From the NCBI RefSeq assembly GCF_003334255.1, contig NZ_QOWU01000032.1: a stretch of DNA of 57,148 nucleotides, one strand, 5' to 3'. Of this stretch, positions 4,143-45,672 are shown piece by piece. Each line of letters begins with the position of its first letter. Positions within the stretch are counted from its first letter, which is position 1. The translations under genes and the position numbers were made by a program. Source of the stretch: Escherichia coli. GTDB lineage: Bacteria; Pseudomonadota; Gammaproteobacteria; Enterobacterales; Enterobacteriaceae. The notes under the pieces are model-generated. The model worked only from the letters and a program-made list of their open reading frames with translations. It searched no databases and had not been told where the DNA came from.

Positions 4143-4192
<50 letters not shown>

Positions 4193-8809: not shown

Positions 8810-8892
8810 TGGCCTGATAAGACGCGTGAGCGTCGCATCAGGCATCGTTCACCATTGCCGGATGCGGCGTTAACGCCTTATCCGGCCTACGG
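8810..8892. repeat. REP element cluster (BIME-like) between ypfH and ypfN
   Basis: Inverted REP units: GCCTGATAAGACGCGTGAGCGTCGCATCAGGC and GCCGGATGCGGCGTTAACGCCTTATCCGGCCTAC. Confidence 0.55.
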
Positions 8893-33545: not shown

Positions 33546-33729
<184 letters not shown>

Positions 33730-44447: not shown

Positions 44448-45431
<984 letters not shown>

Positions 45432-45506
45432 GCGTTTCTGATTCATTGATTAAAGGCCAGGCAGTAACATTACTGACTGGCCTCAGATTGTTGACCAAGT
45501 GCGCGT

Positions 45507-45625
45507 TGTACACGCCGGATGCGGCGTGAACGCCTTATCCGGCCTACGAAATCGTGCTAATTCAATATATTGTGGGCTCCACGTAGGCCTGATAAGCGTA
45601 GCGCATCAGGCAGTTTTGCGTTTGT
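45507..45625. repeat. Composite REP element (REP - central A/T-rich core - inverted REP; RIP/BIME-like), copy A
   Basis: GCCGGATGCGGCGTGAACGCCTTATCCGGCCTAC, then AAATCGTGCTAATTCAATATATTG core, then GTAGGCCTGATAAGCGTAGCGCATCAGGC; highly similar to the inverted copy at 56430-56557. Confidence 0.6.
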
Positions 45626-45636
45626 CAGCACTCTCA

Positions 45637-45672
45637 GACCAGCCAGTAACATTACTGACTGGCCTTTTTATT
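45637..45672 (+). terminator. Hairpin plus T-tract (terminator-like) downstream of yfeX, overlapping the yfeW stop
   Basis: GACCAGCCAGTAACATTACTGACTGGCC forms an interrupted ~10-bp stem and is followed by TTTTTATT; a 26/28-identical copy without the T-tract lies at 45455-45482. Confidence 0.45.

What the first reader, a model, noticed from the sequence alone, without database searches (positions are those of the whole stretch)
45455..45672. REP element downstream of yfeX is bracketed by 28-bp direct repeats (duplicated hairpin)
Seen in sequence: GGCCAGGCAGTAACATTACTGACTGGCC (45455-45482) and GACCAGCCAGTAACATTACTGACTGGCC (45637-45664) are 26/28 identical, in direct orientation, and flank ~150 bp that contain the composite REP element. 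Each copy can fold into a hairpin, and only the second is followed by a T-tract (TTTTTATT), which overlaps the yfeW stop. REP elements are not known to generate target-site duplications. Inference: this looks like either an insertion that duplicated a pre-existing terminator hairpin, or a MITE-like element whose termini are these repeats.
Basis: partly seen in the sequence, partly recalled or inferred. Interest (0 to 1): 0.4.

Follow-up and report, generated by a model that had tools for sequence, protein, structure and literature searches.

The report
BIME-1 insertion that duplicated a terminator hairpin
A known 153-bp repeat element (BIME-1, two REPs around an IHF site) sits between two copies of the yfeX/pbp4b terminator hairpin; related genomes show that BIME-1 insertion copies the hairpin it lands on, which is a clue to how these repeats spread.

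Summary
Two near-palindromic 28-30-nt copies (45455-45482 and 45637-45664, 26/28 identical, direct orientation) bracket a 153-bp BIME-1.

- About 74% of 5,426 complete E. coli genomes carry an allele exactly 182 bp shorter, with one hairpin.
- The hairpin occurs nowhere else in the genome, so it is not a MITE terminus.
- A Citrobacter and a Salmonella genome have a single hairpin and no BIME at this position.

The insertion is old. Orthologous copies occur in E. whittamii and E. albertii. In two other Escherichia species they form tandem arrays of the 182-bp unit, with 2 and 7 copies. One E. coli strain lacks the 182 bp but matches K-12 exactly over 3.4 kb, which indicates recent precise loss. 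Two more match over the 400 bp tested.

The pattern is general:
- 8 of 23 independent BIME-1 loci carry flanking direct repeats of a locus-specific hairpin.
- 20 of 23 abut a hairpin on at least one side.
- Five further filled/empty pairs show one hairpin when empty and two when filled.

The duplicated length tracks the hairpin (about 19-32 nt). This suggests staggered cutting at the hairpin feet, but that step is inferred. I found no description of it in the papers I could read.

The parts
44532..45431 (+). yfeX CDS (porphyrinogen peroxidase), upstream convergent gene
   Evidence: ORF list; RefSeq annotation of identical DNA
45455..45482 (.). Left copy of the terminator hairpin, GGCCAGGCAGTAACATTACTGACTGGCC. 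It is identical to the single copy in empty-site alleles. On the - strand it is followed by TTTAAT.
45483..45513 (+). BIME-1 left flanking motif / imperfect terminal inverted repeat (TCAGATTGTTGACCAAGTGCGC...)
   Evidence: Homology with other BIME-1 loci starts here. Inverted repeat I1 extends 16 nt beyond the hairpin.
45514..45547 (+). Y-type REP (palindromic unit), ending in CTAC
   Evidence: Inverted repeats I5 and I2. REP copies occur elsewhere in the window. Sub-threshold Rfam naRNA4 hits.
45548..45582 (+). L linker with an IHF-consensus-like site, AATTCAATATATTG (45559-45572)
   Evidence: Sequence. The same 14-mer occurs at 121 metagenome loci. Its IHF role is taken from the literature, not tested here.
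45583..45611 (+). Z1-type REP in inverted orientation, starting with GTAG
   Evidence: IS621 is inserted here in strain KW21.
45612..45635 (+). BIME-1 right flanking motif / imperfect terminal inverted repeat (...TTTTGCGTTTGTCAGCACTCTC)
45637..45664 (.). Right copy of the terminator hairpin, GACCAGCCAGTAACATTACTGACTGGCC. It has 2 substitutions relative to the left copy.
45665..45672 (+). T-tract TTTTTATT; with the right hairpin it forms the + strand intrinsic-terminator shape. It overlaps the pbp4b stop codon.
   Evidence: the same junction is present in empty alleles
45671..46975 (-). pbp4b (yfeW) CDS, downstream convergent gene

Best explanation
The two 28-nt repeats are two copies of the bidirectional terminator-type hairpin that lies between the convergent genes yfeX and pbp4b (yfeW). 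A BIME-1 element integrated at that hairpin. BIME-1 consists of a Y REP, an IHF-site linker and a Z1 REP, with imperfect inverted end motifs. The integration duplicated the whole stem-loop, giving flank-H-BIME-H-flank, with both original flank junctions intact. This happened before the Escherichia species separated. Since then the two hairpin copies have acted as direct repeats around a large quasi-palindrome. They allow precise loss, which restores the single hairpin found in most E. coli. They also allow unequal exchange, which gives tandem arrays of the 182-bp unit in other species. In the filled allele, the hairpin nearer each gene has lost its T-tract. Each convergent transcript should therefore read through the BIME-1 and stop at the far hairpin, which puts the REP pair in both 3' UTRs. 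This last point is inferred, not tested. The same footprint at other BIME-1 loci indicates a general mode of BIME-1 integration. The duplicated length equals the hairpin length. This is best explained by cuts at the two feet of the extruded hairpin, one on each strand, followed by fill-in. This step is also inferred, and the enzyme is unknown. RAYT (TnpA_REP) is a candidate.
For: Shown for this locus:
- The empty allele is exactly 182 bp shorter and has one hairpin.
- About 1,400 of 5,426 genomes are filled.
- The hairpin is unique to this locus.
- Citrobacter sp. R56 and S. enterica arizonae have a single hairpin without BIME.
- Other Escherichia carry H-B-H (E. whittamii), (H-B)2-H (Escherichia sp. 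E1V33), (H-B)7-H with period 182 (Escherichia sp. MOD1-EC7003) and H-B followed by a deletion (E. albertii).
- BIME copies at this locus are 92-97% identical across species but only 87-91% identical to the fepA-entD copy, and their divergence roughly tracks yfeX gene identity.
- Strain S163-2 lacks the 182 bp yet has 0 mismatches to K-12 in 2 x 1,700 bp; two further strains are identical over 400 bp.

Shown in general:
- 23 independent BIME-1 loci were recovered from a metagenome scan.
- 8 of 23 have flanking direct repeats above the 99th percentile of 506 mismatched-flank controls. The null maximum is 11.5; observed scores are 25, 23, 16.5, 15, 15, 15, 11.5 and 10. The repeats abut the BIME ends.
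- 20 of 23 abut a stable hairpin on at least one side, against 9 of 46 control windows (p = 5e-5).
- Five more filled/empty pairs show one hairpin when empty and two when filled: ysgA-metE, fbaA, yfiE-srmB, mscK-rsmS and satP-mog.
- At yfiE-srmB the empty-site hairpin cannot be made by one crossover between the two filled-allele copies, so the empty state is ancestral there.

Compatible with the literature:
- RAYT cleaves at CC^T on both sides of REP hairpins. The hairpin foot here reads GGCC^T on both strands.
Against: No enzyme or intermediate was observed, so the cutting model is inference. C^T at the 3' foot is expected for any terminator and is absent at some loci (srmB, L120), so it is weak evidence for RAYT. 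IS200/IS605-type Y1 transposition, the family RAYT belongs to, makes no target duplication. 15 of 23 loci show no clear duplicate; this may be decay or a second insertion mode. At fbaA the right junction lies inside the BIME end motif, next to a similar target sequence. That hints at microhomology-mediated joining and not precise cleavage. The sample holds only well-conserved BIME-1 copies from gut metagenomes. The 7-unit array comes from one short-read assembly. Within E. coli, whether most empty alleles are losses or retained ancestral alleles is not settled.
Confidence: 0.75

Rival explanations
1. The 28-mers are the terminal repeats of a composite MITE-like element (hairpin-REP-REP-hairpin) that moved into the spacer as one unit. 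The single hairpin in other strains is then a solo remnant.
For: The whole 214-bp structure is a long imperfect palindrome with 47-nt arms that are 81% complementary.
Against: The hairpin occurs at no other place in 5,421 genomes: median 1 place, and 2 only in filled alleles. A homologous single hairpin follows yfeX in a Citrobacter genome that has no BIME there. At seven other loci the bracketing hairpins all have different, locus-specific sequences.
Confidence: 0.02
2. The hairpin duplication has nothing to do with insertion. BIME-1 first inserted beside the hairpin without any duplication. Later tandem duplication or rolling-circle-like amplification of a [hairpin + BIME] unit, followed by contraction, left the K-12 arrangement.
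For: Tandem arrays of exactly this unit exist. A published model predicts RAYT-driven amplification that captures flanking sequence. Tandem REPIN clusters that include flanking sequence are known in P. fluorescens. A second tandem BIME-1 array with captured flank lies 1.8 kb away in the same genome.
Against: Tandem duplication of [H-B] from flank-H-B-flank gives an array that ends in B. All observed alleles end in H joined to the original right flank and begin with H joined to the original left flank. Seven other loci show H-B-H without any array.
Confidence: 0.1
3. The filled allele in K-12-like E. coli was imported by homologous recombination from another Escherichia lineage. It was not inherited vertically, and the empty sites of E. 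coli are ancestral for the species.
For: Only about a quarter of E. coli genomes are filled, and their alleles are at least 99.7% identical. The right hairpin copy carries C at position 7, as in E. whittamii and E1V33, while the left copy carries G, as in neighbouring E. coli empty alleles.
Against: The K-12 BIME is not especially close to any sampled species: 94-97% to all of them. This rival concerns only how the allele is distributed. It does not explain how the duplication arose.
Confidence: 0.12
4. Two similar terminators evolved independently on each side of the REP pair, or the similarity is chance.
For: Both convergent genes need a terminator.
Against: The copies are 28/30 identical including the loop and the mismatched positions. 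Zero matches are expected by chance. The indel is exactly 182 bp, equal to the repeat spacing.
Confidence: 0.01

Closest known systems
BIME-1 (also called RIP or RIB elements) of E. coli: Y REP - L linker with IHF site - Z1 REP
   Same: The 153-bp core has this composition and order. It is extragenic and lies at the 3' ends of convergent genes. It is about 91% identical to the fepA-entD copy. BIME-1 are already known to be present or absent among isolates (citing Bachellier 1997).
   Different: The descriptions I could read do not mention duplicated target hairpins. They state that BIME-1 occur as single copies. At this locus, other species carry tandem arrays of 2 and 7 BIME-1, with the captured hairpin as the linker between units.
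YPAL / RU-2 elements of Yersinia (De Gregorio et al. 2006, as summarised by Delihas 2008)
   Same: These are GC-rich palindromic repeats of about 168 bp. Their insertion gives target duplications of variable length (3-26 bp), at or next to regions of dyad symmetry. That is the same behaviour seen here, with about 19-32 bp spanning a hairpin.
   Different: They belong to a different genus and sequence family. I could not read the primary paper or compare sequences, so any relationship is untested.
REPINs and tandem REPIN clusters of Pseudomonas fluorescens (Bertels and Rainey 2011)
   Same: A REP doublet is the mobile unit. Ordered clusters are tandem repeats of a REPIN together with its flanking sequence, like the (hairpin + BIME-1)n arrays here.
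   Different: My term searches of that paper found no mention of a target duplication or of a hairpin target. The REP family and RAYT group also differ.
IS200/IS605-type single-strand 'peel and paste' transposition (the family to which RAYT/TnpA_REP is related)
   Same: Hairpin-recognising HUH enzymes cut at the foot of stem-loops. RAYT cuts at CC^T on both sides of REP hairpins in vitro.
   Different: This mechanism leaves no target duplication. The BIME-1 footprint found here does leave one, so plain peel-and-paste does not account for it.
Precise excision of Tn10/Tn5 by slippage between short direct repeats that flank long inverted repeats (established knowledge, not tested here)
   Same: Direct repeats bracket a quasi-palindrome, and loss restores the original target exactly, as in strain S163-2.
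   Different: The direct repeats here are 28-30 bp and are themselves palindromic. The rate and its genetic requirements are unknown.

Membership tests
BIME-1 (RIP/RIB) | One Y-type and one Z1-type REP in inverted orientation, with CTAC/GTAG facing the linker | tested here: met
   CTAC at 45544-45547 and GTAG at 45583-45586. Inverted repeat I2 is 93% complementary. REP copies occur elsewhere in the window. There are 12-54 matching places per E. coli genome. The Y/Z1 assignment follows the nomenclature and similarity to other BIME-1 loci, not a curated model.
BIME-1 (RIP/RIB) | Long conserved L linker carrying an IHF site | tested here: inconclusive
   AATTCAATATATTG at 45559-45572 is shared exactly by 121 loci. 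It has one mismatch to WATCAANNNNTTR (my reading). IHF binding itself cannot be tested with these tools.
BIME-1 (RIP/RIB) | [quoted passage not shown] | tested here: met
   It lies in the 239-bp spacer between the convergent genes yfeX and pbp4b.
BIME-1 (RIP/RIB) | Occurs as a single unit, not in tandem | tested here: met
   Met in K-12. Not met by the orthologous locus in Escherichia sp. E1V33 (2 units) or MOD1-EC7003 (7.2 units, period 182).
Classical MITE (IS-derived, DDE-mobilised) | Terminal inverted repeats matching an IS, and a short target duplication of fixed length | tested here: not met
   The BIME ends are only 12/16 complementary, and no IS relative was sought. The duplication is long and variable (about 19-32 nt) and follows the hairpin length.
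   The hairpin is found only at this locus in 5,421 genomes.
IS200/IS605-like (RAYT) peel-and-paste product | Insertion without target duplication | tested here: not met
   The target hairpin is duplicated in six filled/empty pairs. Whether RAYT is involved was not tested.
Intrinsic (Rho-independent) terminator: the duplicated hairpin | GC-rich stem-loop followed by a T-tract; here A-tract before and T-tract after, giving bidirectional use | tested here: inconclusive
   The empty-site form AAAGGCC...GGCCTTTTTATT folds at -20.8 and -20.7 kcal/mol on the two strands. The consensus scan did not call it, probably because of the internal mismatch. Termination itself was not tested.

The most novel reading that the evidence does not exclude
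BIME-1 elements are mobile units that integrate specifically at extruded terminator hairpins. One cut is made at the 3' foot of the stem-loop on each strand, so the whole hairpin is duplicated. On this reading the 19-32-nt, structure-defined duplication is the first sequence footprint of REP/BIME integration. It is reversible by precise excision, it seeds tandem arrays, and it rules out simple IS200-type peel-and-paste as the way these elements spread.
Probability: 0.35. Interest if true: 0.8.

Novelty: new variant of a known kind. Interest (0 to 1): 0.55.

Why it matters
How REP and BIME sequences spread is still described as unknown. Reviews say REPs lack the signatures of transposable elements. 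A reproducible insertion footprint gives a concrete, testable constraint on the mechanism and on the role of RAYT. The footprint is duplication of exactly the target stem-loop, seen in six filled/empty pairs and in 8 of 23 loci. It also explains why BIME-1 lie at the 3' ends of genes: they target terminators. It explains why they are so often present or absent among strains: the duplicates allow precise loss. And it shows how an insertion can preserve termination for both convergent genes. In practice, K-12 and S163-2-type strains differ only by the 182 bp over the 3.4 kb compared. That makes a natural pair for measuring what a BIME-1 does to the 3' ends of two mRNAs.

Tried and rejected
- **Rfam.** Only sub-threshold REP-derived hits were found (naRNA4 36 bits against a gathering score of 59.5; ES036). 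They add nothing beyond "REP".
- **Promoter/terminator scan.** No terminator was called. I judged this a limitation of the scan, because the stems carry mismatches.
- **Arrays in E. coli.** I tried twice to count E. coli genomes with two or more units, using junction and two-unit queries. The tool joins pieces from one copy, so the counts are uninformative. Whether arrays exist in E. coli stays open; the hairpin search gave at most 3 places in any genome.
- **Locus L120.** This is the best perfect 23-nt duplicate, but its flanks have no counterpart in E. coli, so no empty site could be sought.
- **chbG-katE.** It is filled in 1,931 genomes, and no empty allele appeared among the rows shown.
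- **Viral contigs.** Only one BIME-1 hit.
- **Papers not held.** Bachellier 1997, Boccard and Prentki 1993 and De Gregorio 2006 could not be read. Prior description of the hairpin duplication therefore cannot be excluded.
- **C^T cleavage-site idea.** It fits yfeX, fbaA and katE but not srmB or L120. It is expected for any terminator, so I kept it only as a compatible detail.
- **Inverted counts.** For loci other than yfeX they are not register-optimised and should not be used.
- **RefSeq NC_000913.3.** No repeat feature is listed in the stretch shown, so the official REP/RIP name of this element could not be confirmed.

Full report
**1. The observation**

The window reads GATTAAA-GGCCAGGCAGTAACATTACTGACTGGCC-TCAGATTG... 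at 45455-45482. It reads ...CTCTCA-GACCAGCCAGTAACATTACTGACTGGCC-TTTTTATTAC at 45637-45664. The repeat finder reports a 30-nt direct repeat, 28/30 identical, spaced 182 nt. It also reports a 47-nt inverted repeat, because each copy is itself a near-palindrome. The asymmetric positions (7, 14-15 and 22) fit the direct orientation better: 26/28 against 23/28. A degenerate pattern finds only these two sites in 57 kb, with none expected by chance. Both copies fold well on both strands. Only the right copy carries the T-tract, which overlaps the pbp4b stop codon by 2 nt.

**2. Anatomy**

The genes are yfeX (44532-45431, +) and pbp4b/yfeW (45671-46975, -). They are convergent and separated by 239 bp. 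Between the hairpin copies lies a 153-bp BIME-1:
- a left end motif (45483-45513);
- a Y REP ending in CTAC (45514-45547);
- a linker with the IHF-like AATTCAATATATTG (45559-45572);
- a Z1 REP starting with GTAG (45583-45611);
- a right end motif (45612-45635).

The two end motifs are imperfect inverted repeats of each other. The same 153 bp matches the fepA-entD spacer at 91% identity, and the match stops exactly at the hairpin boundaries. A second BIME-1 lies at about 56425-56575 in the window.

**3. The empty site exists**

In complete E. coli genomes, about 1,400 of 5,426 carry the K-12 arrangement at 99.7% identity or more. The rest carry an allele in which the same flanks span exactly 182 bp less. 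Three examples read GATTAAAGGCCAGGCAGTAACATTACTGACTGGCCTTTTTATTAC. That is one hairpin with both original junctions, an A-tract before it and a T-tract after it, which is the shape of a bidirectional intrinsic terminator.

**4. The hairpin is a local sequence, not a mobile terminus**

A sensitive search with the 34-nt hairpin finds it in 5,421 of 5,426 genomes. The median is one place per genome. The total of 6,838 places implies about 1,400 genomes with a second copy, which matches the number of filled alleles. No hit was seen away from this locus in the rows shown or in the loci I fetched. Other E. coli lineages carry single, slightly different hairpins (L007-L009). Outside the genus:
- Citrobacter sp. 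R56 has a single perfect palindrome, AAAGGCCAGTCAGTGATGTCACTGACTGGCCTTTTT, after yfeX and no BIME.
- Salmonella enterica arizonae has a single related hairpin between yfeX and yfeW.

The single hairpin is therefore the ancestral state, and the MITE-terminus reading is rejected.

**5. The insertion is old, and the unit can amplify**

Other Escherichia species carry the same BIME-1 at the same place:
- E. whittamii has hairpin-BIME-hairpin.
- E. albertii has hairpin-BIME followed by a deletion into pbp4b.
- Escherichia sp. E1V33 has two units plus a final hairpin.
- Escherichia sp. MOD1-EC7003 has 7.2 units of period 182, with 96% matches between units.

Every array starts with a hairpin joined to the original left flank. 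Every array ends with a hairpin joined to TTTTT. The BIME copies at this locus are 92-97% identical between species and only 87-91% identical to the fepA copy. Their divergence roughly follows yfeX gene identity, which is 92-96%. This indicates one old insertion that has been inherited since.

**6. Precise loss**

A synthetic K-12 "empty" query (left flank + one hairpin + right flank) matches three genomes at 100% over 400 nt in one piece. In strain S163-2 the 1,700 bp on each side have no mismatch to the window. By comparison, O157 has 13 and 48 mismatches over about 1,500 bp on each side. The only difference from K-12 is the missing 182 bp. The filled allele is shared by about 1,400 genomes and by other species, so this is best read as recent precise loss through the two hairpin copies.

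Other decay products exist:
- a 29-bp deletion removes the left arm of the right hairpin (L218);
- an IS621 sits inside the Z1 REP in strain KW21.

**7. The pattern is general**

A metagenome scan with a BIME-1 core pattern gave 121 loci, which fall into 26 flank clusters. For the 23 clusters with full flanks I scored the best ungapped direct repeat between the sequences next to the two BIME ends. I compared these scores with 506 mismatched left/right flank pairs. The null has mean 6.3, 99th percentile 9.5 and maximum 11.5. The observed scores are 25, 23, 16.5, 15, 15, 15, 11.5 and 10, so eight loci exceed the 99th percentile. The repeats abut the BIME boundaries.

In every case the repeated sequences are different, locus-specific, GC-rich stem-loops. 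Twenty of 23 loci have a stable hairpin (-10 kcal/mol or stronger within 38 nt) touching at least one BIME end. Seven have one on both ends. Controls give 9 of 46 (Mann-Whitney p = 5e-5).

Five further filled/empty comparisons were then made in E. coli genomes:

| Locus | Empty allele | Filled allele |
|---|---|---|
| ysgA-metE | single ACCGGGTGGTATTACCACCCGGT | two copies in a related Escherichia-like contig |
| downstream of fbaA | strain NC101 | 3,724 genomes |
| yfiE-srmB | single AATGCCGGGCTTAAACCCGGCATT | 2,525 genomes |
| mscK-rsmS | an ST131 strain | 3,881 genomes |
| satP-mog | single GATCCCCCCGCTCGGGGGGATTTTTTT | 467 genomes, left copy decayed, right copy intact |

In all six pairs, including yfeX, the empty allele has one hairpin and the filled allele has hairpin-BIME-hairpin. 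The duplicated length is about 19-32 nt and follows the size of the stem-loop.

**8. Polarity**

At yfiE-srmB the two copies in the filled allele differ from each other at four positions (G,T,G,A against A,C,A,C). The empty-site hairpin reads G,C,G,C at those positions and forms a perfect stem. No single crossover between the two copies can give that sequence. The empty state is therefore ancestral there, and each copy mutated after the duplication. Together with the outgroups at yfeX, this shows that the duplication accompanies insertion. Section 6 shows that the reverse step also happens.

**9. How it most likely works**

Shown:
- the target is a terminator-type hairpin;
- the whole hairpin is duplicated in direct orientation;
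- both original flank junctions survive;
- the duplicates later support precise loss and, in some lineages, tandem arrays.

Inferred:
- A tandem duplication of [hairpin + BIME] cannot produce an array that ends in a hairpin joined to the original flank. The duplication must therefore arise at integration.
- A duplication whose length equals the stem-loop implies one cut at each foot of the hairpin, on opposite strands, followed by fill-in. Such cuts are natural for an enzyme that reads the hairpin on each strand of an extruded palindrome.
- RAYT/TnpA_REP is a candidate. In vitro it cuts at CC^T on both sides of REP hairpins and at C^T sites some distance from a BIME. The yfeX hairpin foot reads GGCC^T on both strands. 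This motif is expected for any terminator and is missing at some loci, so I give the RAYT step about 0.3.
- The fbaA junction hints at microhomology instead.

Functional consequence (inferred): the hairpin nearer each gene loses its T-tract. Both convergent transcripts should then cross the BIME-1 and end at the distal hairpin. The REP pair and the IHF site would thus sit in both 3' UTRs while termination is preserved.

**10. Comparison with what is known**

The element is a standard BIME-1 (RIP/RIB). BIME-1 are known to be present or absent among isolates: Bachellier 1997 as cited, whose abstract, from my memory, speaks of "excisions of a whole BIME-1". The papers I could read state the following:
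- BIME-1 occur as single copies.
- REPs lack MITE signatures.
- IS200/IS605 relatives make no target duplication.
- REP flanks were not examined in detail.
- The way these elements spread is unknown.

The closest behaviour reported is that of Yersinia YPAL elements, which make 3-26-bp duplications at dyad symmetries. Tandem REPIN clusters that include flanking sequence in P. fluorescens are also close. I could not read Bachellier 1997, Boccard and Prentki 1993 or De Gregorio 2006, so earlier mention of flanking duplicates cannot be excluded.

**11. Verdict**

The element itself is ordinary and known. What is not ordinary is the footprint it carries, its generality across BIME-1 loci, and the tandem arrays of BIME-1 plus captured terminator in other Escherichia species. 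I rate it a new variant of a known kind, with interest 0.55. The main uncertainties are the mechanism and possible prior description in papers I could not access.

Noticed in passing
L004 (E. coli KW21), equivalent to window 45586/45587: An IS621 (IS110 family, transposase frameshifted) is inserted inside the Z1 REP of this BIME-1, between ..CCACGTAG and GCCTGATAAG. This fits the REP-targeting reported for IS110-family elements.
   Followed up: partly
L015 1386-1760 (Escherichia sp. MOD1-EC7003), downstream of yfeZ: A second tandem BIME-1 array: 3 units of period 130-131. Each unit is 14 nt of unique left flank (AGAATAACGCAGAG) plus a truncated BIME-1. The locus has a single copy in E. whittamii and E1V33, and no BIME-1 match was found at the corresponding position of the K-12 window. 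Two arrays in one genome suggest active amplification in that lineage.
   Followed up: partly
L005 (NEBExpress, B strain), L007 (Ecol_743), L011: pbp4b/yfeW is almost entirely deleted in some E. coli lineages, leaving an 87-nt remnant next to murP. The single hairpin is retained in L005 and L007. L011 has a diverged BIME-1 and no hairpin.
   Followed up: no
L016 (E. albertii): Hairpin-BIME-1 is followed directly by internal pbp4b sequence. A deletion has removed the second hairpin and the 3' part of pbp4b.
   Followed up: no
L218 (E. coli Br_178_kylling), equivalent to window 45627-45655: A 29-bp deletion removes the end of the BIME right motif and the left arm of the right hairpin. It is an example of decay of one duplicate.
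   Followed up: partly
window 56425-56590 (- strand): A second BIME-1 in the window. In other strains (L101) its left flank is a perfect hairpin, ATTTGTCGGCAG-CAACAA-CTGCCGACAAAT, whose arms resemble the BIME right and left end motifs. In K-12 part of it is deleted. The 15-nt direct repeat D1 (80% identical, spacing 150) is related to this.
   Followed up: partly
window 45508-45660: Sub-threshold Rfam matches to naRNA4 (36.3 bits against a gathering score of 59.5) and ES036 (27.3 against 37.6). I take these to reflect REP sequence within those families.
   Followed up: no
window 4156-4181, 8811-8891, 20152-20202, 33550-33726, 55435-55470: Other REP or BIME-2-like clusters in the window, found by similarity to the Y and Z2 REPs. 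Their flanks were not examined for duplicates.
   Followed up: no
L008 (E. coli NMBU-W13E19) 1-458: An IS200C transposase gene lies directly upstream of yfeX, where yfeY normally sits.
   Followed up: no
L213 (E. coli O121 RM8352), metE upstream region: A different gene arrangement upstream of metE. A degenerate BIME-1 abuts a hairpin (AAAATGGCTTCCGGTGATGGAAGCCAT) on one side only.
   Followed up: no
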